Source: a virus (Duplodnaviria > Caudoviricetes). Taken from it: DNA of 64,000 nucleotides. Below, one piece after another: positions 2,210-30,377 of the stretch; position 1 is the first letter of the stretch, and each line of letters opens with the position of its first letter. The position numbers were made by a program, and so were the translations under genes. The stretch lies in the IMG/VR virus record IMGVR_UViG_3300037422_000298. One strand, 5' to 3'. The notes beneath the pieces were generated by a model. The model made no database searches and was not told where the DNA came from. It saw only the letters and a list, made by a program, of their open reading frames with translations.

Positions 2210-4734
2210 TACGAAGCGTCGCCGCCGGTCGGAACGAGCGCACCGCCGGACTCGACAGGATCCGGTTGGTCGGTGTCGACCTCGACTTCTTCGATCAGGA
2301 TACGCACGCATTCCTGACGGAAGTCCGAGGGCGCCTTTGGCAACATCACGTCGATGAAGTCCGCCCAACGTTCTTGTTGGAACAGCACGAACGCGGGGAT
2401 GACGAGCTGGTTCGACACGACATGCTCGACGCCTTGCAGGATCGCATCGATCACCTTGTCGGGTGTCAGCTTGCCTTCAGCGACGCCGCGCCGTAGGCGC
2501 TGCACGCTCTCCAGTGCGATGCCGAACATCTCTTCTTCGGTCGGGCCTGTGTTGTTCGGCGGCGGGGGCGGCTCGACGTACCCTTCGATCGGGCCGGTCT
2601 GTTTGGCTTGTGCTACCGGCTCGGCTGGATCGATCGGACCGGTGCGCTTCGGTTGTGTATTGCCCAGACCTGCAGCCGTGTGACCGTTCGATGGTTGTGC
2701 CGTTGGCTGCTGCGGGTGCGGCTGTGCTGCTGGCTGCTGCGGCTTCGTACTTGCGTTCGCATTCACGACCGGCGGCGGAGGTGCCCACTGACCGCCTTGC
2801 GCACGCGCCTGTGCTTGCGCTTGCGTGTACATCGCTTGCGATCGCAGCTGCGCGTCGGCTTGGATCTTCATCTGGTCGCGTTGCGCTTCGGCGGTCTTGA
2901 CCTTGGCCTCGCTGATCACCGAATCGCGCTTCACCGCGAGGAATCGCTCGGCGACTTCGCTCGCACGACCGATACCCTCTTGGATCAGGCGAACGGCAGG
3001 CGGTTCACCGCCGCCACCGCTCATCTCCATGACGGTCTGCGCGGCGTTCTTGTAGAGGTTGCCGATCTCGCCGACCGACTGGATCATGCTGCGCATCACG
3101 CCGTCGGAGCCTTGCGAGCTGTCCTTCATGATCGCCGCGAGCTGTGCCGGGGCGACCATGAACTGCGCCATGCGTTCGGTGGACTGTTGTTGCATGCGCG
3201 AGATCTCACGCATGTTGTCGGCGTTTGCGCGCGCGGTTTCCTTCATCATGTCGATCACGGGATCGCTCGCATTCCGCGCCGTCATGAGCTGCTCGAATCG
3301 GCGTTCGGTAGCAGCCTGCTGTTCACGCATCTCGCGCTGCAGGGTCTCTTCGCGCCGTTCGCGCTCGTAGCGCTCGCGCTCGCGCTCGCGCTCGTGACGC
3401 TCGTTTTCGATTCGGCGTGCGTCCTCCTGACGCTGACGTTCGAACTCGCGCGCCTGGCGATCTTGCTCCTCGCGGAGTCGCCGGTACTCGTCGGTCTCGC
3501 CGCGCGGCTGTTCGTTCATCCGTACGATCTGATCACGGAGTGCTTGAACTTGCGCGTCGCTTTGCGCGCGCATCTGTGCGAGCTGCTGTTCGGCGATTTG
3601 TCGTTGCAGCGCTGCTTGTTCTGCGGCGGCTTGCTCACGCAGTCGCTGCTGCTCGGCTTGCGCCGCTTCGCGCAGTCGCTGTTGCTCTTCGCGCATGCGA
3701 CGGACTTCTTCATCTTCGCCCTTGCCGCGGCTCTCGCCCATGCGGCGGATCTCTTCCTGCATCGCCTGGAGCTGTTGCGCGTGCTGCTGCTGAAGCTGCT
3801 GTAGTGCTTGCTGTTGCGACGCCTGGATCCGATCGAGCGTCGTCTTGTACTCCAGCTCCTTCTGGTTCAGCTCGGCTTGGCGCAGCTTCTGCTCCAGCTC
3901 ACGCTTCTCGGCTTCGCGCTTCTCGTTCTTCTCGTCGTCTTCGAAGAATCGCGCGTTGCGACGTCGATCGTACTCGTCTTCATACGGCCGCGAACGCGGG
4001 TAGCCGTAGCCCATGCCCTGACCGGGACCTCCGAACGGGCCGCCGAAGTTCGACTGCGGGTAGCCCCACGGACCTTGCGGCATGCCCCACGGACCTTGCG
4101 GTGCGCCCCACGGTCCCATCGGGTTCGCGCCCCACGCGCCTTGCGGGTTCCACATTGGTGGAGCTTGCGGCATTGGCGGCGCCTGTGTCATGAGCGGCGT
4201 CATCGCAGGTGCATTGGGTGCGACTGGCGCAGGCATCACAGGTCCGGTGTGTGGTGGGTTGTTGTAGCCGAGCGCCGTTCCAGTTGGAGGCCAGCCAGTC
4301 TGCTGTTGCAGCCCGAGCGGCTGTGCGCCTGGTGGGATGTTTTGCGGGCCAGCGATAGGCGGAGCTGCCGCGGGCACGTTGGCGCCATACATCGCGGCTT
4401 CGGCTGTGTTGGGTGGGATCTTCTCCGGGTACATCCGCGGGTCCCACACGCCTTGCCACGTCATGCGCTCGCCCTTCGCGTCGGTGACGGTGAACTCGTA
4501 ATAGCCGCCGCCCGACCACTTCGTGAGGATGAAGTTCTCCAGCTGCAGCACTTCATCGCGCGTCCAGCCAGTGCCAGGAGGTGAGAAGCCGGTCTGCTCG
4601 CTGCCCTTCGGCGGAAGCTCGATCGGTTGACGCACGTTGCCGCGCATCTTCTCGACACGCACAGTCAACGGCTCGTGCATGCTCTGCAGCTTGACTTGAT
4701 CGAAACGCTGCTCTTTCTCTTTCTGCGCGGCCAT
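2209..4734 (-). CDS. Large Pro/Gly-rich and Gln/Glu/Arg coiled-coil protein
   Basis: 841-aa ORF with GAGGAG RBS; (A/M)PQGPWG repeats; long heptad-like Q/E/R region; palindrome at 4754-4770 upstream. Confidence 0.85.
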   Translation of the reverse strand: MAAQKEKEQRFDQVKLQSMHEPLTVRVEKMRGNVRQPIELPPKGSEQTGFSPPGTGWTRDEVLQLENFILTKWSGGGYYEFTVTDAKGERMTWQGVWDPRMYPEKIPPNTAEAAMYGANVPAAAPPIAGPQNIPPGAQPLGLQQQTGWPPTGTALGYNNPPHTGPVMPAPVAPNAPAMTPLMTQAPPMPQAPPMWNPQGAWGANPMGPWGAPQGPWGMPQGPWGYPQSNFGGPFGGPGQGMGYGYPRSRPYEDEYDRRRNARFFEDDEKNEKREAEKRELEQKLRQAELNQKELEYKTTLDRIQASQQQALQQLQQQHAQQLQAMQEEIRRMGESRGKGEDEEVRRMREEQQRLREAAQAEQQRLREQAAAEQAALQRQIAEQQLAQMRAQSDAQVQALRDQIVRMNEQPRGETDEYRRLREEQDRQAREFERQRQEDARRIENERHERERERERYERERREETLQREMREQQAATERRFEQLMTARNASDPVIDMMKETARANADNMREISRMQQQSTERMAQFMVAPAQLAAIMKDSSQGSDGVMRSMIQSVGEIGNLYKNAAQTVMEMSGGGGEPPAVRLIQEGIGRASEVAERFLAVKRDSVISEAKVKTAEAQRDQMKIQADAQLRSQAMYTQAQAQARAQGGQWAPPPPVVNANASTKPQQPAAQPHPQQPTAQPSNGHTAAGLGNTQPKRTGPIDPAEPVAQAKQTGPIEGYVEPPPPPNNTGPTEEEMFGIALESVQRLRRGVAEGKLTPDKVIDAILQGVEHVVSNQLVIPAFVLFQQERWADFIDVMLPKAPSDFRQECVRILIEEVEVDTDQPDPVESGGALVPTGGDAS

Positions 4735-18874: not shown

Positions 18875-19674
18875 GTGATGACCCTCAACGGCGACGGCTT
18901 CTTGAACGGTTCGTCGGTGGCCGGACACATCCCGCAGAACGTCTCGGCCTGCTTCGCAGCGAACGCTTTCAGCTCCTCGTCGCTACAACTCGGATCGAGC
19001 GCTTCGTACGCGAGATACGGATCCCACGCAGGTGGCAGTGCGGGGTACGTTCGCTTGTGCAACGGCAGGTACGCGAGCGCGGGGCACTTCCAGAGCTTGC
19101 CTTCGTGCAGCTGCTTCGCGAGCCGCGCAGGGCAACGGCCCCAGCTCTTCTCCGGGCGGCCATCGCTGTACGGCAGCATGTCGGCGCCTTCGCCGTGATA
19201 CCGCCGTGTCCACCCTCGATGTGAATCCTTGGCGCTCACCATGAACGAGTACGCGCTTTGCCACTGTTTGAGCAACTCGCGGATGCGCACGACGTGTTCG
19301 TTGTAGATGATCGAATCGTCGTGGATGCTCCAAATGAGCGTGGTCTTGGTTTCGGCGAGCGCGCGTGGAAGCTCGGGATGCCGTTGAAGGAAGAAGCCGT
19401 TGGTGGTGAGTTCTAGCAACGTGTCCGGCCACTGCTGTCGCATCAGCACGACGATCTTCGTCAGTTCTGGATGCAGCGTTGGTTCTCCGCCGAGCACGCG
19501 AAACTTCCATGGTGCGATGCGCTGCTTCCACGCATTCGTCCACGCGAGCGCATCGTCGAGCGAGAGTAGACCCTTCGCCGTCGCCGTGTTGCTGTAGTGC
19601 GAACAGCTCTGACAGTTCAGGTTGCAGCCGTGCGCTGCGTGGATCTCGACGATATCGACGTGAACAAGCACCAC
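18871..19674 (-). CDS. Radical SAM protein
   Basis: CxxxCxxC (CNLNCQSC), GGEPTLHP, TTNG; C-terminal Cys cluster (KCP..CGMCP). Confidence 0.9.
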   Translation of the reverse strand: MVLVHVDIVEIHAAHGCNLNCQSCSHYSNTATAKGLLSLDDALAWTNAWKQRIAPWKFRVLGGEPTLHPELTKIVVLMRQQWPDTLLELTTNGFFLQRHPELPRALAETKTTLIWSIHDDSIIYNEHVVRIRELLKQWQSAYSFMVSAKDSHRGWTRRYHGEGADMLPYSDGRPEKSWGRCPARLAKQLHEGKLWKCPALAYLPLHKRTYPALPPAWDPYLAYEALDPSCSDEELKAFAAKQAETFCGMCPATDEPFKKPSPLRVIT

Positions 19675-19675
19675 A

Positions 19676-20101
19676 TCAATCTCGTAGCGCAGCTTCGATT
19701 TGCGCGATCAACTCGATCCGCCGTTGTGGAGGCAGCGGTCGAGGAGGATCTGGGTGCGTCCACGGCGGCTTTCGTGCAACAGGACAGTCACGAACGCGCG
19801 GGATCAGGTGAGCGTGCACGTGCGGCTCGTGGTTGCCCATGATCGCGTAGTTCATACGGTCGCAACCCGTCACACGTTGGATGGCTTTCGCCGCACGTCG
19901 AATGTCGACGAGAAACGCTTGAGCCAGCTCGTCGGAGATGTCTGTGAAGTCGACGTGGTGTTCGTCGAGCGCCAACACGGAGCGGCCTGGAAAACGTACG
20001 TCGTCGTAGAGCCCAAGCGTCGAGACTTGCAACGGACCGATGACCGCGTGCATCTGCCAATCACACGCCTTCGACTTGCAGTAGTAGACCGGCTTGGTCA
20101 T
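19676..20101 (-). CDS. HIT family hydrolase
   Basis: PHVHAHLIPR histidine triad; TACCGT -10 is 6 nt before the ATG. Confidence 0.85.
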   Translation of the reverse strand: MTKPVYYCKSKACDWQMHAVIGPLQVSTLGLYDDVRFPGRSVLALDEHHVDFTDISDELAQAFLVDIRRAAKAIQRVTGCDRMNYAIMGNHEPHVHAHLIPRVRDCPVARKPPWTHPDPPRPLPPQRRIELIAQIEAALRD

Positions 20102-20140
20102 GACGCCACGGTAGCGTGGCGGCGCGAGCGCGCGCAACTG

Positions 20141-20311
20141 CTAGCCACGACGGCAGGTGCATGGACAGTCGCTGACTCGGCCGCAAGCAACGCAGATGTA
20201 GACGCCGCGACCTTGAGGCGGGTGTTGCGGGCAGATCATCGAGCCGCGGGAGTCACACGTACACGGTTGATCAACACGCGTCTTCTCATCGTTGTCGCGC
20301 TTCTCGTTCAT
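20141..20311 (-). CDS. 56-aa Cys-rich small protein (below ORF-track cutoff)
   Basis: MNEKRDNDEKTRVDQPCTCDSRGSMICPQHPPQGRGVYICVACGRVSDCPCTCRRG. Confidence 0.45.
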   Translation of the reverse strand: MNEKRDNDEKTRVDQPCTCDSRGSMICPQHPPQGRGVYICVACGRVSDCPCTCRRG

Positions 20312-20331
20312 CCCGCGTACGATGCCGTGGC

Positions 20332-20688
20332 GTGACGAAGCGACGCAAACCTCGAACGGTCACCGGACGCGTGGCTCTACGCCTTCGGGAGGCTGTCATC
20401 GGACCGGCGACAGCACTCAACCGCATGCGTGACGACCTGGAGTACGTCTTCATGCTCGTCGTTGCACAAGCAACGCAGCAAGGACTTCAACCGATCGACT
20501 TCGACAACGACGACGGCATCGATGCGTTGAGCGCAATCTTCATGGCGGTCACCGATCGCGATCGCGAGTTGATTCACGTGACGCCAGAGTGGCGCCGGGT
20601 CGTGATTTCCGCGCGGGCGCCACGGCGCGCGTTCTCGCCGCAGTTACCTGCTCGGCGGGATCACATCGGCATGCGAAGAGCGTCTTGA
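20332..20688 (+). CDS. Hypothetical protein
   Basis: 118-aa ORF divergent from the HIT operon. Confidence 0.55.
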   Translation: MTKRRKPRTVTGRVALRLREAVIGPATALNRMRDDLEYVFMLVVAQATQQGLQPIDFDNDDGIDALSAIFMAVTDRDRELIHVTPEWRRVVISARAPRRAFSPQLPARRDHIGMRRAS

Positions 20689-20713
20689 CAACGCGCAGAC
20701 AGCCCGCTAGGGT
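20685..20713 (+). promoter_or_regulatory. Sigma70 promoter of the RNA cluster
   Basis: TTGACA(20685-20690)-17 nt-TAGGGT(20708-20713); predicted TSS ~20720 coincides with the first RNA. Confidence 0.75.
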
Positions 20714-20720
20714 ACGTCTC

Positions 20721-20819
20721 GGCTGGTTACCACCAGCGTCGTGCTTACAAGCGCCGCAAGGCACCTTCTACCATCAGACAGGAAGAAACCAGCACGACGC
20801 ACTCGGTGACCAGACACCA
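20721..20819 (+). ncRNA. RNA A: ~100-nt Y-RNA-like structured RNA
   Basis: 9-bp CTGGTTACC/GGTGACCAG, ACCA/ACTC internal loop, 10-bp GCGTCGTGCT/AGCACGACGC, TACAAGC, GCAA tetraloop hairpin, 3' ACCA. Confidence 0.7.
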
Positions 20820-20820
20820 T

Positions 20821-20949
20821 CGCGGGTAAGCGCACTGGGTGCGCGCTCCTCTCATAAGGGAAAAACCTCACAGTCACATCTCGCCGTGCACGCGCGGCAT
20901 CCGCAACTGTGTACAAGCCAGCTAGGTTCGATTCCTAGACCCGCGACCA
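20821..20949 (+). tRNA. RNA B: tRNA-like, CAT anticodon, 59-nt structured variable-arm insert
   Basis: Acceptor CGCGGGT/ACCCGCG-A-CCA, D arm, CTCATAA loop, T arm CTAGG-TTCGATT-CCTAG; insert 20863-20921. Confidence 0.7.
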
Positions 20950-20979
20950 CCTGACAACTGAAGAGCGCGCCAAATTTTC

Positions 20980-21119
20980 CGGGGGTCACGCCGGTCGGTC
21001 CGGCACTTGAATACGGATCAAGCAAACACTCAACAGCGGCACTCGGCGTCGACGTTCACGCGAAGACGCCACTCGTCGAATGTTTACAAGCTAGTGGTTC
21101 GACTCCACAACCCCCGACC
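20980..21119 (+). tRNA. RNA C: tRNA-like, ACG (Arg) anticodon, 70-nt structured variable-arm insert
   Basis: Acceptor CGGGGGT/ACCCCCG, GCCGG/CCGGC D arm, CTTGA-ATACGGA-TCAAG, TTCGACT T loop; insert 21023-21092. Confidence 0.65.
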
Positions 21120-21242
21120 GAAGTCGTCATCCAGAGGTGCTCACACGCATAGCTCAATCGAAGAGCGTCGCCCTGATAAGGCGAAGGTTGCGGTCTCATA
21201 AACCGCTGCATTCAACACCCAGCATCTCACCTCGACGGCTTC
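21120..21242 (+). ncRNA. RNA D: tRNA-Ile(GAT)-like body on an extended interrupted stem
   Basis: GAAGTCGTC/GACGGCTTC and GAGGTGCT/AGCATCTC stems enclose a D arm, TCGCC-CTGATAA-GGCGA and a T-position arm with CTCATAA loop. Confidence 0.7.
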
Positions 21243-21309
21243 TACCTACGCTCTCCGAAGAACGCGACGCAGCCTCGTGCCGCCTAGCGGTCGTAAAGAG
21301 GGCACCTAT

Positions 21310-21383
<74 letters not shown>

Positions 21384-21386
21384 CTA

Positions 21387-21517
21387 GAAGCCGTCATCAC
21401 GAAGCGCTCACACGCATTGACCAACGGTAGGTCATCAGTCTCGTAAACTGACGGTTGCAGGTTCAAGTCCTGCTGCACCTCGCAAGAGGATCTCCAGCGT
21501 TTCACCTCGACGGCTTC
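21387..21517 (+). ncRNA. RNA E: tRNA-Thr(CGT)-like body on an extended interrupted stem
   Basis: GAAGCCGTC/GACGGCTTC and GAAGCGCT/AGCGTTTC stems enclose a D arm, TCAGT-CTCGTAA-ACTGA, GCAGG-TTCAAGT-CCTGC and an extra GCAA hairpin. Confidence 0.75.
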
Positions 21518-21539
21518 GAACTTTTCAGTGAGCACGGCC

Positions 21540-21971
21540 ATGGCGCGCCCTCCACACGAAATCATCCACGAGCGTGCTCGTTGGGAAATCGAGTACGACG
21601 CTCAACGCGCTGCGCTCGAAGCCAAGTACGGCGTGCCGTACGAGAAGCTGCCCGAGATCTTGCGGTACCCACCACCGGAGCATCCGCAGCACGGGAACCC
21701 GCGACGGTTCGACTACGTCAGCCTTTTTGGGCGGCGCTACAACGCCCGTTCGAGATCGTCGCGGCGGCTTATCCTAGCTGGTCGTGATCAGCTCGGTTGG
21801 CGTACACGTCGCGAACACTATCTCGATCGCGTCGAGAAGTTTCGTCAGGCCGAGATCGCCGTTCGCAAGCTCCGTACGAAACGGACTGGACGCGGCAAGC
21901 CACTCGATCGTAAAGCTCACGTGCATGCACGTGAACGTATCGATGCGCGCGAGTGGCGCGACGAGTTGTAG
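21540..21971 (+). CDS. Basic hypothetical protein
   Basis: Arg-rich 143-aa ORF after the RNA cluster. Confidence 0.6.
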   Translation: MARPPHEIIHERARWEIEYDAQRAALEAKYGVPYEKLPEILRYPPPEHPQHGNPRRFDYVSLFGRRYNARSRSSRRLILAGRDQLGWRTRREHYLDRVEKFRQAEIAVRKLRTKRTGRGKPLDRKAHVHARERIDAREWRDEL

Positions 21972-23097: not shown

Positions 23098-23400
23098 TTA
23101 TTCGATCCGCGTATCTTCGTCGACAAAGTCATCCGGCGGGTGACCGCAGTGCGGGCACGTCCGAGGTGACAGCCACTCGCCCGCTAGCAGCTCTTCCAGG
23201 CTCACATCGACGAAGCGCGCCACACGCAGCGCCATCGTCGGCGTGACGGCCCGCTTGCCGGTCGCGACCTTCTGGACGCTGTCCCACTTGTAGCGCAGCA
23301 CCTTCGCGAGCGGCTCCCATGCCCCCACGCGAAGCCGCAGGAAGCGCAGGGCCGTGCGGACAGCTCGCTGTTCCTTCTCGGTCAGGTCGTTGAGCGTCAT
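23098..23400 (-). CDS. XRE-type HTH protein with C-terminal CPHC
   Basis: LAKVL..SVQKVATGKRAVTPTMALRVARFVDVSLEELL; coupled to the transposase stop. Confidence 0.7.
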   Translation of the reverse strand: MTLNDLTEKEQRAVRTALRFLRLRVGAWEPLAKVLRYKWDSVQKVATGKRAVTPTMALRVARFVDVSLEELLAGEWLSPRTCPHCGHPPDDFVDEDTRIE

Positions 23401-24582
23401 GGCTGCACCAACTCCAGTGCAGGCGCGGGCAGCGCAGCGGGCGCGTCCGGCCAAAACGTCGGCGTCAGGCCCGACATGAAGATGGCCTTCACCAAGCAGC
23501 ACAGGTTGTGCGCCAAGCACTTGGTCAGGACTTCGTTGATCTGCGCAGTGGGCCGTTTCGACATCACCGACGCACCGAACTTGGACTTGATCATCCACAT
23601 CGCGGACTCGACGTTGCTGCGGCGGTGGTAGTGCGGCAGGAACTTGTCCTGGTTGAAGCAGAACTCGGCGAGGTGCTTTGACCACACGGGCGCCTTCGGA
23701 TCAACCTTCGCGTTCTCCTTGAACGGGATGAACGCCTCAACGCCGAACGATTCGAGCACAGCGTGGTTCTTCTTCGACGAGTACGCTTTGTCGGCCGAGA
23801 CTTCACGGACGTTGAAGCGCTTCATCGTCTGCACCAGCAGCTCTGGCAACTGCGGGCAGTCGCCTTCCTGTGACACCTTCACGCCCGTGATCGCGTGGGT
23901 CACGGTGCCGATCATGACGTGCAGCTTCACCCACGGGTGCTGCGCGTTCAGTTTGCCGTGCTTCTGATCGAACCAACGGTCGTAGGTCACGGTCGAGAAC
24001 CCGGTGGAATCGACCGCGAACTGGCCGTTCTCTCTGGATCGAGTTCTCGTGCCGGACGTGGCTGAGATGGCCCTTGGCGGCGCACGCTTCAAGGTCCGAC
24101 TTCATGCGACGGCCCGAGAGCATCGTGTAGACCTTCATGACGGCCGAGAACACGAGGTCGCTCAACAGGCACGGGTTGCGTCCCGGCCCCGGCTTGCGCG
24201 GCGGTTGAACGATCAACGCGCACAGCGCCCGTAGCAGGCGCTCGACGTACTCGCGCTCGTGATGCTGGCTGGCGTTGTATGCCGACCAGTCGCGCTGCGG
24301 GTACGTCTTGCGCTTGACGGCGATCGTCTCGGTCACGCTGCCGTCTGCCGCGACATCGCGGCCCCAGGCGATCCAGTAGAGGACCGCATGCTGATGCTTG
24401 CAGGTGCCCTTGCGCAGCTCGTAGTCGGGGCACGTGCAGGCCGAGTCTTCGATGTCGACGAGGTAACGATTCGACGCGCTCGTCTGCGACGGCACGGCCC
24501 AGCGGCGACCGACCCGTTTGATGACGGTCGCAGCAGCGAGCTGCCGCCCGCGAGCTTCCCGAATGTCCAACGCCGTTTCCAT
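23397..24582 (-). pseudogene. SWIM zinc finger plus IS4/IS5-like DDE transposase, frameshifted near 24035
   Basis: CTCPD..CKH (SWIM), YPQRDWSAYN in one frame; FAVDSTGF, WVKLH, SADKAY, YHRRSNVES..MIK in another. Confidence 0.85.
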
Positions 24583-29262: not shown

Positions 29263-29337
29263 GCTGGCGTAGCTCAACTGGAAGAAGCCGCGAGCTTAAA
29301 CCTCGCGCAAGTGCGGGTTCGAATCCCGTCGCCAGTA
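29263..29337 (+). tRNA. tRNA-Leu (TAA)
   Basis: GCTGGCG/CGCCAGT acceptor, GCGAG-CTTAAAC-CTCGC, TTCGAAT; short variable loop. Confidence 0.85.
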
Positions 29338-29342
29338 CGAAC

Positions 29343-29417
29343 GTCGCGGTAGCCCAACTTGGTAGCGGCAATGCGTTGAGCGCGCATCCAGTGAGGGTTC
29401 GAATCCCTCTCGCGACA
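29343..29417 (+). tRNA. tRNA-Leu (GAG)
   Basis: GTCGCGG/TCGCGAC, ATGCG-TTGAGCG-CGCAT, TTCGAAT. Confidence 0.85.
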
Positions 29418-29426
29418 CGATCACAA

Positions 29427-29500
29427 GCCGACGTAGCCCAACTGGTAGCGGCAACGTGTTCAGCGCACGTTCAGTGCGGGTTCGAATCCCGCCGTCGGTA
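29427..29500 (+). tRNA. tRNA-Leu (CAG)
   Basis: GCCGACG/CGTCGGT, ACGTG-TTCAGCG-CACGT, TTCGAAT. Confidence 0.85.
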
Positions 29501-29524
29501 CGAGTGACGATCCTTCCAACGACA

Positions 29525-30214: not shown

Positions 30215-30288
30215 GCCAGTGTATCCCAACAAGCAGAGGAGCCCGATTTAGGATCGGGTCGTTGCAGGTGCAAGTCCTGTCGCTGGCA
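30215..30288 (+). tRNA. tRNA-Leu (TAG)
   Basis: GCCAGTG/CGCTGGC, CCCGA-TTTAGGA-TCGGG, atypical TGCAAGT T loop. Confidence 0.8.
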
Positions 30289-30292
30289 CGAC

Positions 30293-30366
30293 GCCACCGT
30301 AGCCCAACCTGGCAGAGGCCCGGTCTCAAACACCGGACAGCGTCGGTTCGACTCCGACCGGTGGTA
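30293..30366 (+). tRNA. tRNA-Leu (CAA)
   Basis: GCCACCG/CGGTGGT, CCGGT-CTCAAAC-ACCGG, TTCGACT. Confidence 0.85.
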
Positions 30367-30377
30367 CTCTTTTCGAT

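What the first reader, a model, noticed from the sequence alone, without database searches (positions are those of the whole stretch)
20821..21119. tRNAs with 59- and 70-nt variable arms
Seen: complete acceptor, D, anticodon and T arms (B even encodes CCA), but variable regions far longer than class II arms. The inserts are too short for group I introns and are not in the anticodon loop. They could be retained domains or novel excised introns; tRNA scanners would probably miss or mis-call them.
Basis: seen in the sequence. Interest (0 to 1): 0.7.

Follow-up and report, generated by a model that had tools for sequence, protein, structure and literature searches.

The report
tRNA-shaped RNAs with Ro60-type handle
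Two genes in this giant phage fold as complete tRNAs but carry a conserved 59- or 70-base folded arm where the short variable loop should be; the arm is probably kept as a docking handle for a nearby Ro60-like protein, which would make these a new tRNA-topology form of Y RNAs and not tRNAs with a new intron.

Summary
RNA A (20821-20949, anticodon CAU, CCA encoded) and RNA B (20980-21117, anticodon ACG) are full cloverleaves with 59- and 70-nt inserts between the anticodon stem and the T stem. ARAGORN and the Rfam tRNA model miss both.

The inserts are one conserved module: C-rich linker, helix P1, internal loop with invariant CUC, hairpin P2, P1', then UACAAGC just before the T stem. A covariance model finds 64 copies in 33 phage loci and 15 in MAG contigs, on bodies with many anticodons and with strong covariation.

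The same module also forms the paired 5'/3' ends of other tRNA-like RNAs, three of them in this cluster. In relatives it occurs in circularly permuted forms whose acceptor stem is capped by a loop, as in YrlA.

These RNAs travel with a cassette (window 9291-16954) whose 648-aa protein has a TROVE-like helical domain plus an intact vWA/MIDAS, the Ro60 architecture. No splicing endonuclease was found, and RtcB is inconsistent.

Best reading (about 0.6): the arms are retained Ro60-like docking handles, making these Y-RNA-like tRNA hybrids. Binding, expression and charging are untested. I found no published description. This scan has reported the same family on other phage DNA, with the same reading.

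The parts
20687..20715 (+). Candidate promoter of the RNA cluster (TTGACA, 17 nt, TAGGGT)
   Evidence: Both hexamers are invariant between the window and relative L120 (alignment A1). It fails the generic sigma-70 scan because the -10 matches only 3 of 6. Function is inferred.
20723..20813 (+). Module-only small RNA. Its 5' and 3' ends form P2 and P1 around UACAAGC, two small hairpins and GAAACC.
   Evidence: Topology script; partial R1 hit; conserved in L120 and L057.
20821..20949 (+). RNA A: complete cloverleaf, anticodon CAU, encoded CCA, with a 59-nt module in the variable region
   Evidence: The L120 ortholog has compensatory changes in the acceptor, D, anticodon and T stems and in P1 and P2.
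20863..20921 (+). Module of A. J5' 20863-68; P1 20869-74/20906-11; internal loop 20875-82 (ends in CUC) / 20899-905; P2 hairpin 20883-98; J3' UACAAGC 20912-18 plus CAG.
20980..21117 (+). RNA B: complete cloverleaf, anticodon ACG, no CCA, with a 70-nt module in the variable region
   Evidence: The L120 counterpart keeps the anticodon loop, J5' and P1 5' strand but is not a cloverleaf.
21023..21092 (+). Module of B. J5' 21023-31; P1 21032-40/21075-84 (bulged); symmetric loop ACUC/ACUC 21041-44/21071-74; P2 21045-50/21065-70 with a distal hairpin; UACAAGC 21085-91.
21120..21242 (+). Open-type RNA. The module is formed by leader and trailer around a tRNA-like body with a GAU anticodon loop, a second CAU-like loop in the T-arm position, and a 3-bp acceptor.
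   Evidence: Conserved in L120, where the anticodon is GAC.
21310..21384 (+). Ordinary initiator-type tRNA (CAU; 1:72 mismatch; three G-C pairs in the anticodon stem) inside the cluster
   Evidence: conserved in L120.
21387..21517 (+). Open-type RNA. The module is formed by leader and trailer around a tRNA-like body with CGU anticodon and a 3-bp acceptor.
9291..11237 (+). 648-aa Ro60-like protein (helical TROVE-like domain plus vWA with invariant DxSxS...T...D), proposed partner of the module
   Evidence: Co-occurrence with the module.
11670..16954 (+). Rest of the linked cassette: 316-aa protein 11670-12620; JAB 13887-14300; 126-aa putative Ubl 14362-14742; ThiF/E1-like 16346-16954
   Evidence: Pfam ThiF 1.9e-18 and weak Prok-JAB. 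Co-occurrence with module loci.

Best explanation
A and B belong to a widespread, apparently undescribed family of huge-phage RNAs.

Each has an L-shaped tRNA-like body and one conserved two-helix arm, the module: P1, an internal loop with CUC, and hairpin P2, flanked by a C-rich 5' linker and UACAAGC. In A and B the module projects from the variable-arm position of an otherwise complete cloverleaf.

The arm is most likely retained in the mature RNA. I propose it docks on the Ro60-like ring protein encoded 10 kb upstream, as the stem of a Y RNA docks on Ro60. The tRNA-shaped body would then present a tRNA look-alike, possibly even a chargeable tRNA end, to a second partner, as proposed for YrlA.

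Shown here:
- the structure, its conservation and its covariation;
- the three topologies of the same parts;
- genomic co-occurrence with the protein cassette;
- the Ro60-like fold and domain order of the protein.

Inferred:
- physical binding of the module to that protein;
- retention of the arm in the mature RNA;
- what the tRNA body recruits.
For: (1) The module is conserved and covaries.
- Model R1 finds 64 hits in 33 of 116 phage loci and 15 in MAG contigs.
- 226 pair cells have changes on both sides against 86.5 in shuffles. The covariation score is 0.612 against at most 0.161 when partners are slid.
- G-U pairs are frequent, so the fold is strand-specific and at the RNA level.

(2) The host bodies carry many anticodons: Asn, Tyr, Gly, Phe, Arg, Met, Val, Trp, Lys, Gln, Leu, Ser and opal.

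(3) The same module occurs in other topologies.
- It closes the 5'/3' ends of tRNA-like RNAs.
- It occurs in circularly permuted genes with a loop-capped acceptor. That is the YrlA gene order (PMC4201824).

(4) The bodies differ from the 304 ordinary tRNAs in the same loci. U33 is present in 11/32 against 293/304, and U8 in 16/32 against 246/304.

(5) The module is linked to the cassette.
- A cassette gene lies in 18/33 module loci against 4/83 others; two of those four have open-type modules.
- In MAG contigs, 5/8 module loci have the Ro60-like gene, in some only about 100-200 nt away.
- In whole records, the gene is present in 8 of 9 module-bearing records that are at least 24% complete.
- In a five-record control, the only record with the gene was the only one with a module, 2.8 kb from it.

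(6) The protein looks like Ro60.
- Full-length Foldseek top hits are TROVE and Ro60 entries (E 4e-8 to 3e-5, 490-587 aligned columns).
- For the helical domain alone, searched against 48,161 chains, the top three are the three Ro60 representatives (Z 9.2, 8.9, 8.9; 232-266 residues aligned). The next hit has Z 6.3.
- The MIDAS residues are invariant.

(7) There is no support for excision. No EndA was found in 5 records. RtcB was found in 1 of 5 and is absent from the complete relative G001.

(8) The A ortholog in L120 keeps the arm, with compensatory changes.
Against: - There are no expression, size, binding or charging data.
- The Ro60 link rests on fold only. Pfam TROVE and profile searches find nothing. 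Foldseek on the helical domain alone is weak (E 0.2). The rmsd is about 15 A, and Z near 9 is within the range that helical repeats can reach by arrangement alone.
- The Y-RNA docking motif GNCGAAN0-1G is absent: 2 of 64 copies, one of them B.
- In this window the cluster lies 3.8 kb from the cassette, not next to it.
- A and B have canonical U33 and a purine at 37, and open acceptor ends. CCA is encoded in 10/32 family members against about 0.5 expected by chance. That fits real acceptor function.
- The cassette holds five proteins, so the direct RNA partner could be another one, for example the E1-like enzyme that usually abuts the arrays.
- The permuted forms would also fit a cleavage-ligation pathway.
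Confidence: 0.6

Rival explanations
1. A and B are working tRNAs. They are charged and used in decoding, and they keep an oversized variable arm. The arm would recruit a phage protein, for example to shield phage tRNAs from host anticodon nucleases or to mark them.
For: - Acceptor stems are complete and open; A has A73 and an encoded CCA.
- A and B have canonical 7-nt anticodon loops with U33.
- CCA is enriched in the family: 10/32.
- The cluster sits among tRNA genes.
- tmRNA shows that ribosomes tolerate large additions to a tRNA-like domain (established knowledge).
Against: - U33 is lost in 21/32 family members, against 11/304 neighbouring tRNAs.
- U8 is absent from both A and B.
- B has a 5-nt D loop without the A20 that E. 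coli ArgRS uses for identity (my own knowledge).
- In L120 the discriminator and CCA of A are not conserved, and the B counterpart is not a cloverleaf.
- Sister RNAs with the same module have closed or 3-bp acceptors.
Confidence: 0.2
2. The module is a processing signal that works like the archaeal bulge-helix-bulge. An unknown endonuclease cuts both strands of the internal loop and a ligase joins the ends. This would splice A and B and circularise or re-join the permuted and leader-trailer forms.
For: - One motif is used inside genes, at leader-trailer stems and in permuted genes. That parallels archaeal and Cyanidioschyzon BHB usage (established knowledge).
- The internal loop is often symmetric, for example ACUC/ACUC in B.
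- One relative encodes RtcB.
Against: - No EndA-type endonuclease in 5 records.
- RtcB is missing from the complete relative G001.
- Cutting in the loop would still leave P1 plus both linkers, about 35-45 nt, so no normal tRNA would result.
- The most conserved nucleotides (UACAAGC and the C-rich linker) lie outside any excised part.
- In permuted forms the acceptor caps are tight tetraloops with no room for N73-CCA.
Confidence: 0.12
3. A and B are tRNA pseudogenes disrupted by a small mobile DNA element of the MITE or palindromic type.
For: The inserts share their end sequences and sit in several tRNA genes.
Against: - There are compensatory changes in both the module and the tRNA stems between the window and L120.
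- Covariation with many G-U pairs shows selection at the RNA level.
- The module occurs only in these RNAs, not elsewhere in the 64-kb window.
- Permuted and terminal topologies cannot arise by simple insertion.
- The insertion point and register are always the same.
Confidence: 0.03

Closest known systems
YrlA-type Y RNAs with Ro60/Rsr in bacteria and phages (Chen et al. 2014, PMC4201824; structure preprint 10.1101/312249; phage phiLo Ro60 with Yrl1/Yrl2, PMC12135203)
   Same: - A small RNA that combines a tRNA-like domain (D and T arms) with a long helix interrupted by an internal loop, thought to dock the protein.
- Genes often tandem and close to the Ro60(-like) gene.
- Permuted relatives of A and B have the YrlA order: handle strand, T arm, loop-capped acceptor, D arm, handle strand.
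- The partner protein has a helical ring-type domain followed by vWA/MIDAS.
   Different: - The handle sits in the variable-arm position, not in place of the anticodon stem, and a full anticodon arm is kept.
- A and B have open acceptor ends, and A encodes CCA.
- The GNCGAAN0-1G/CGAA motif is absent; CUC and UACAAGC are conserved instead.
- No Rfam family other than tRNA matched the region.
- The protein is not recognised by Pfam TROVE.
- The protein sits in an E1/Ubl/JAB cassette, not an rtcBA operon.
Class II tRNAs, tRNA-Sec and allo-tRNAs (long variable arms; my own knowledge, Mukai et al. 2017)
   Same: An extra helix emerges between the anticodon and T arms. Many family members have a 5-6-bp D stem with a 3-5-nt loop and lack U8, as in tRNA-Sec.
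   Different: - The arm is 59-70 nt with two helices and conserved linkers, against roughly 10-24 nt.
- It is found on bodies with anticodons of class I amino acids.
- U33 is often lost.
Intron-containing, split and permuted tRNA genes of archaea and Cyanidioschyzon (BHB motif, EndA, RtcB; my own knowledge)
   Same: One structural motif is reused inside tRNA genes, at leader-trailer helices and in circularly permuted genes.
   Different: - There is no 3-4-3 bulge-helix-bulge.
- No EndA was found.
- The conserved bases lie outside the part that could be removed.
- The host is a bacteriophage.
Group I introns in bacterial and phage tRNA genes (PMC3984707)
   Same: Extra sequence inside a tRNA gene of a phage.
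   Different: Group I introns sit in the anticodon loop, are about 200 nt or longer, and have the P1-P9 core. Here the insert is 59-70 nt in the variable region with no ribozyme match.

Membership tests
Canonical decoding tRNA | Cloverleaf with 7-bp acceptor, D, anticodon and T arms, and the T-loop consensus | tested here: met
   A has one C.A mismatch in the anticodon stem; B has one A.A mismatch in the T stem.
Canonical decoding tRNA | Variable region of 4-5 nt (class I) or about 10-24 nt (class II) | tested here: not met
   59 and 70 nt.
Canonical decoding tRNA | Recognised by tRNA detectors (ARAGORN, Rfam RF00005) | tested here: not met
   The intact genes are missed. They are recognised only after in-silico deletion of the insert.
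Canonical decoding tRNA | Core nucleotides U8 and U33 | tested here: inconclusive
   A and B have U33 but A8 and C8. Across the family U33 is present in 11/32 and U8 in 16/32, against 293/304 and 246/304 in neighbouring tRNAs.
Canonical decoding tRNA | Aminoacylation and use on the ribosome | not testable with these tools
   Needs acid-urea gels or charging assays.
Group I intron in a tRNA gene | Insertion in the anticodon loop, about 200 nt or more, with the P1-P9 core | tested here: not met
   The position and length are wrong, and no intron family matches at E up to 10.
Archaeal-type BHB intron | Bulge-helix-bulge (3-4-3) at the exon-intron borders, plus an EndA endonuclease | tested here: not met
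   Internal loops of 4x4 to 8x7 lie between 6-9-bp helices. PF01974 is absent from 5 records.
YrlA / Y RNA | Encoded near a Ro60 (TROVE plus vWA) gene | tested here: met
   The partner is Ro60-like by fold and domain order only. The genes are adjacent in many relatives. In this window the Ro60-like gene ends about 9.5 kb upstream of the cluster.
YrlA / Y RNA | tRNA-like D and T arms joined to a long helix with an internal loop | tested here: met
YrlA / Y RNA | Conserved GNCGAAN0-1G (CGAA) docking motif on the 5' strand of the stem | tested here: not met
   2 of 64 module copies have it (B has GUCGAAUG). CGAA occurs in the 3' half of 6 of 64.
YrlA / Y RNA | Termini in the docking stem, with the acceptor closed and no free CCA end | tested here: not met
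   A and B have open acceptors and A encodes CCA. The feature is met by sister RNAs at 20723-20813, 21120-21242 and 21387-21517 and by permuted relatives.
YrlA / Y RNA | Match to a curated Rfam Y-RNA/YrlA model | tested here: not met
   cmscan of 20600-21600 at E up to 10 gives only tRNA and two chance hits.
YrlA / Y RNA | Physical binding to the Ro60 protein | not testable with these tools
   Needs EMSA or pull-down.
Ro60 / TROVE protein (for ORF 9291-11237) | TROVE domain recognisable by sequence (PF05731) | tested here: not met
Ro60 / TROVE protein (for ORF 9291-11237) | Helical-repeat TROVE fold followed by vWA with MIDAS | tested here: met
   - Ro60 entries are the top hits in Foldseek on the full-length model.
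- They are also the top hits in VIA-align on the helical domain: Z 8.9-9.2 against the next hit at 6.0-6.3.
- D444, S446, S448, T507 and D534 are invariant.
- Caveats: rmsd about 15 A, and ring closure is not shown.

The most novel reading that the evidence does not exclude
The open-acceptor forms, including A with its A73-CCA end, are really aminoacylated. They would then be charged tRNAs physically tethered to a Ro60-like/ubiquitin-like (E1, Ubl, JAB) machine. Two roles are conceivable. They could be baits that draw host tRNA-targeting defence nucleases into a complex that tags or disables them. Or they could be donors or sensors that couple tRNA charging to a phage protein-tagging pathway.
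Probability: 0.12. Interest if true: 0.9.

Novelty: new variant of a known kind. Interest (0 to 1): 0.72.

Why it matters
- If the handle reading is right, Y RNAs are not limited to the known stem-loop and YrlA designs. Huge phages would carry arrays of full tRNA cloverleaves, with many anticodons and sometimes CCA ends, fused to a Ro60-type docking arm.
- That would widen the known range of Ro60 ribonucleoproteins. It would also link them to a virus-encoded ubiquitin-like cassette.
- It gives a concrete, testable pair (this RNA and the 648-aa protein) for asking what tRNA mimicry by Y RNAs is for.
- Practically, these genes are invisible to tRNA finders and to Rfam. tRNA counts and non-coding RNA annotation of huge phages are therefore incomplete.

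Tried and rejected
- **Known RNA families.** Rfam at E up to 10 over the region gave nothing relevant, so no ribozyme, riboswitch or Y-RNA family matches.
- **Phage DNA similarity.** A search of the phage collection matched only the ordinary initiator tRNA.
- **Window genome.** No genome is held for the window.
- **Relatives via ORF 19700-20335.** This probably used the wrong frame and found nothing.
- **Relatives via a leader motif.** The pattern gave three unrelated loci.
- **Generic promoter/terminator scan.** It found nothing; the conserved TTGACA/TAGGGT pair falls below its threshold.
- **Sequence-level Ro60 tests.** All were negative: Pfam, PDB phmmer, a PDB profile search, and TROVE in 5 records.
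- **Foldseek on the helical domain alone.** It was dominated by designed repeat proteins.
- **Anti-Shine-Dalgarno idea.** I dropped it for the CACCUC-like loop because ACUC is about as common as CCUC.
- **RNase III site idea.** Not testable here.
- **MITE reading.** Rejected on covariation and topology.
- **Literature.** Burroughs and Aravind 2016 (NAR, RNA repair systems) could not be opened. Two searches for tRNA variable-arm inserts in phages found no description.

Full report
**What is in the sequence**

The window is about 61% G+C, is packed with small ORFs, and carries phage genes such as a GH25 lysin, Prim-Pol and ThyX. No host genome is held for it.

At 20821-20949 (A) and 20980-21117 (B) the sequence reads as two complete cloverleaves.
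- A has a 7-bp acceptor, A73 and an encoded CCA. It has a long D stem with a small GG loop, the anticodon loop CUCAUAA (CAU) and a textbook T arm.
- B has a 7-bp acceptor and A73, followed by CCG. Its anticodon loop is AUACGGA (ACG) and its T arm is GUGG-UUCGACU-CCAC.
- Between the anticodon stem and the T stem lie exactly 59 nt (A) and 70 nt (B).

Position 8 is A in A and C in B, not U.

Minimum-energy folds reproduce the cloverleaf plus a long extra arm, with z-scores of -2.2 and -2.8. ARAGORN and the Rfam tRNA model miss both genes. When the insert is deleted in silico over 84 boundary combinations, ARAGORN calls tRNA-Met(cat) 68 times and tRNA-Arg(acg) 63 times.

**The inserts are one module**

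Both inserts have the same plan:
- a C/A-rich linker (J5');
- helix P1;
- an internal loop whose 5' side ends in CUC;
- hairpin P2;
- the return strand of P1;
- UACAAGC and 1-3 more bases, then the T stem.

A scan of viral contigs for UACAAGC placed just before a T arm returned 116 loci. In about half of them a perfect 7-bp acceptor partner lies 95-130 nt upstream of the T stem.

Thirty-two of these became ARAGORN tRNAs after the insert was deleted. Their anticodons cover Asn, Tyr, Gly, Phe, Arg, Met, Val, Trp, Lys, Gln, Leu, Ser and an opal reader. All fold to the same P1 / loop / P2 arm, and some have one more hairpin right after the anticodon stem.

A covariance model (R1) gave these results:
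- In the 64-kb window it finds only A (E 4e-9), B (3e-7) and a partial third element.
- It finds 64 copies in 33 of the 116 phage loci, with up to 5-6 in tandem.
- It finds 15 copies in MAG contigs, mostly labelled Myxococcota, Proteobacteria and Gemmatimonadota.

On the 64-copy alignment all 14 modelled pairs show double-sided changes. There are 226 such cells against 86.5 in shuffles. The covariation score is 0.612 against at most 0.161 when partners are slid by 1-3 columns. That alignment was fitted to the model, which favours the structure somewhat. G-U pairs are common, so the fold is read on one strand, as RNA.

Nearly invariant bases are CC in J5', CUC(G) in the loop and UACAAGC.

**A close relative**

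Contig L120 (221 kb, judged complete) was found through the neighbouring dCTP deaminase gene. It has the same cluster in the same order.
- Its A ortholog keeps the CUCAUAA loop and the arm. It has compensatory changes in the acceptor, D, anticodon and T stems and in P1 and P2. Its discriminator is U, and CCG replaces CCA.
- Its B counterpart keeps the anticodon loop, J5' and the P1 5' strand almost unchanged. The rest is rearranged and is not a cloverleaf.

So A is under selection as a whole, B is more plastic, and a free CCA end is not a conserved requirement.

**The same module in other topologies**

The cluster 20723-21517 holds five module-bearing RNAs and one ordinary initiator tRNA. I was led to look at the whole cluster by two earlier first-reader notes and then tested it myself.

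In three of the RNAs the module is open, meaning the 5' and 3' ends of the RNA form P2 and P1:
- a module-only RNA at 20723-20813;
- a tRNA-like body with a GAU loop at 21120-21242. It also has a second CAU-type anticodon loop where the T loop should be;
- a tRNA-like body with a CGU loop at 21387-21517.

In both tRNA-like bodies the acceptor is reduced to GCA/UGC.

Open forms recur in many other phages. So does a third form in which the gene is circularly permuted. Its order is handle strand, UACAAGC, T arm, acceptor closed by a tetraloop, D arm, anticodon arm, J5', handle strand. Examples are L002 3230-3362, L033 7941-8074 and L080 557-691.

That is the gene order described for YrlA, the tRNA-like Y RNA (PMC4201824). 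The differences are that here an anticodon arm is kept and the handle leaves from the variable-arm position.

Where the RNA ends lie therefore seems not to matter, while the module and the L-shaped body do. Insertion of a DNA element cannot produce these permutations.

**The bodies are not ordinary tRNAs**

I compared them with 304 ordinary tRNAs called in the same loci.
- U33 is present in 293/304 ordinary tRNAs but only 11/32 module-bearing RNAs.
- U8 is present in 246/304 against 16/32.

Many module-bearing RNAs also have 5-6-bp D stems with 3-5-nt loops, as tRNA-Sec does. On the other hand, CCA follows the discriminator in 10/32, far above the roughly 0.5 expected by chance. A and B themselves have U33. 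Some acceptor-end function therefore cannot be dismissed.

**Linked genes**

An all-against-all comparison of ORFs around the module loci showed one recurring gene set. In the window it corresponds to:
- 9291-11237, a 648-aa vWA protein;
- 11670-12620, a 316-aa protein;
- 13887-14300, JAB;
- 14362-14742, a 126-aa putative Ubl;
- 16346-16954, ThiF/E1-like (Pfam 1.9e-18).

Earlier notes of this scan had described this set as a ubiquitin-like cassette lying beside tRNA genes.

Co-occurrence with the module:
- tblastn finds a cassette gene in 18/33 module loci and in 4/83 other loci. Two of those four carry open-type modules.
- In the independent MAG sample, 5/8 module loci carry the 648-aa gene. 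In L131 and L157 it lies about 100-200 nt from the RNAs.
- In whole records, the gene is present in 8 of 9 module-bearing records that are at least 24% complete.
- In a control of five large records without a module in the fetched locus, exactly one had the gene. Only that one had an R1 hit, 2.8 kb from the gene.

**The 648-aa protein looks like Ro60**

Sequence methods see only the vWA domain. An AlphaFold2 model from 12 homologs has mean pLDDT 78.
- Full-length Foldseek gives TROVE and Ro60 entries as its best PDB matches: phage phiLo, Deinococcus Rsr, and Xenopus and human Ro60. E-values are 4e-8 to 3e-5 over 490-587 columns.
- I modelled the helical part (residues 110-435) alone and aligned it to 48,161 representative chains without a Foldseek prefilter. 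Its three best matches are the three Ro60 representatives (Z 9.2, 8.9, 8.9). They align 232-266 residues over the whole TROVE range. The next hit has Z 6.3 (same picture).
- The MIDAS residues DxSxS...T...D are invariant.

Caveats: the rmsd is about 15 A, Foldseek on the domain alone is weak, and Z near 9 is not conclusive for helical repeats. The domain order and the clear gap to other repeat proteins make 'divergent Ro60-like' the best reading.

**Against splicing**

No EndA-type endonuclease was found in five records. RtcB is in one of five and is missing from the complete relative. No ribozyme or intron family matches. The most conserved bases lie in the linkers that would remain after any cut in the loop. 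Removal of P2 would still leave a 35-45-nt arm.

**Conclusion**

A and B are real, conserved genes. They are tRNA cloverleaves that carry a retained, structured arm. The arm is shared by a large family of tRNA-shaped RNAs in huge phages, and it travels with a Ro60-like protein inside an E1/Ubl/JAB cassette.

The most likely mechanism is that of a Y RNA. The arm docks the ring protein and the tRNA-shaped body addresses a second, unknown partner. Structure, conservation, topologies, linkage and protein fold are shown here. Binding, retention in the mature RNA and any charging are inferred.

The family fails two YrlA criteria, the CGAA motif and the closed acceptor. I therefore file it as a new variant that works like a Y RNA, not as a YrlA member. 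I found no published description.

After I had reached this reading, a look-up showed that other agents of this scan reported the same kind of RNA on other phage DNA and read it the same way. That is not independent evidence.

Noticed in passing
window 29263-29501 and 30215-30367; L120 7115-7508: All five tRNA-Leu isoacceptors (UAA, GAG, CAG, UAG, CAA) are only 74-78 nt long. They are class I sized and lack the long variable arm that bacterial tRNA-Leu normally has. The set is conserved in the relative L120.
   Followed up: no
window 21190-21206: In the open-type RNA at 21120-21242 the arm in the T-arm position has the loop CUCAUAA, which is an anticodon-style CAU loop and not a T loop. This RNA therefore shows two Ile-type anticodon loops (GAU and CAU). 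In L120 the first loop reads GAC instead.
   Followed up: partly
L120 about 3575-3790: The counterpart of B keeps the AAUACGGA loop, J5' and the P1 5' strand nearly unchanged. The acceptor and D arm are replaced by a hairpin, and a separate mini acceptor/T-arm unit follows. L120 also has one more UACAAGC element between the Ile-like RNA and the initiator tRNA.
   Followed up: partly
window 16346-16954 and homologous loci: In most relatives the ThiF/E1-like gene, and not the Ro60-like gene, directly abuts the RNA array, for example in L096, L106, L037, L139 and L154. The E1-like enzyme could therefore also act on these RNAs.
   Followed up: partly
window 23397-24092 (-) and 18871-19674 (-): A transposase-like ORF (phrog_2262, 6e-24) and a radical-SAM ORF (QueE-like hits) flank the RNA cluster region.
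   Followed up: no
L128-L161 (genome contigs): Module-bearing contigs binned into MAGs are mostly labelled Myxococcota, with others labelled Proteobacteria and Gemmatimonadota. Their G+C is 0.54-0.72. This is a hint to the host range of these phages, or a sign of mis-binned phage contigs.
   Followed up: no
G002 (record of L016) 69276-70397: A full-length RtcB RNA ligase gene is present in this 436-kb phage but not in the complete 221-kb relative of the window.
   Followed up: no
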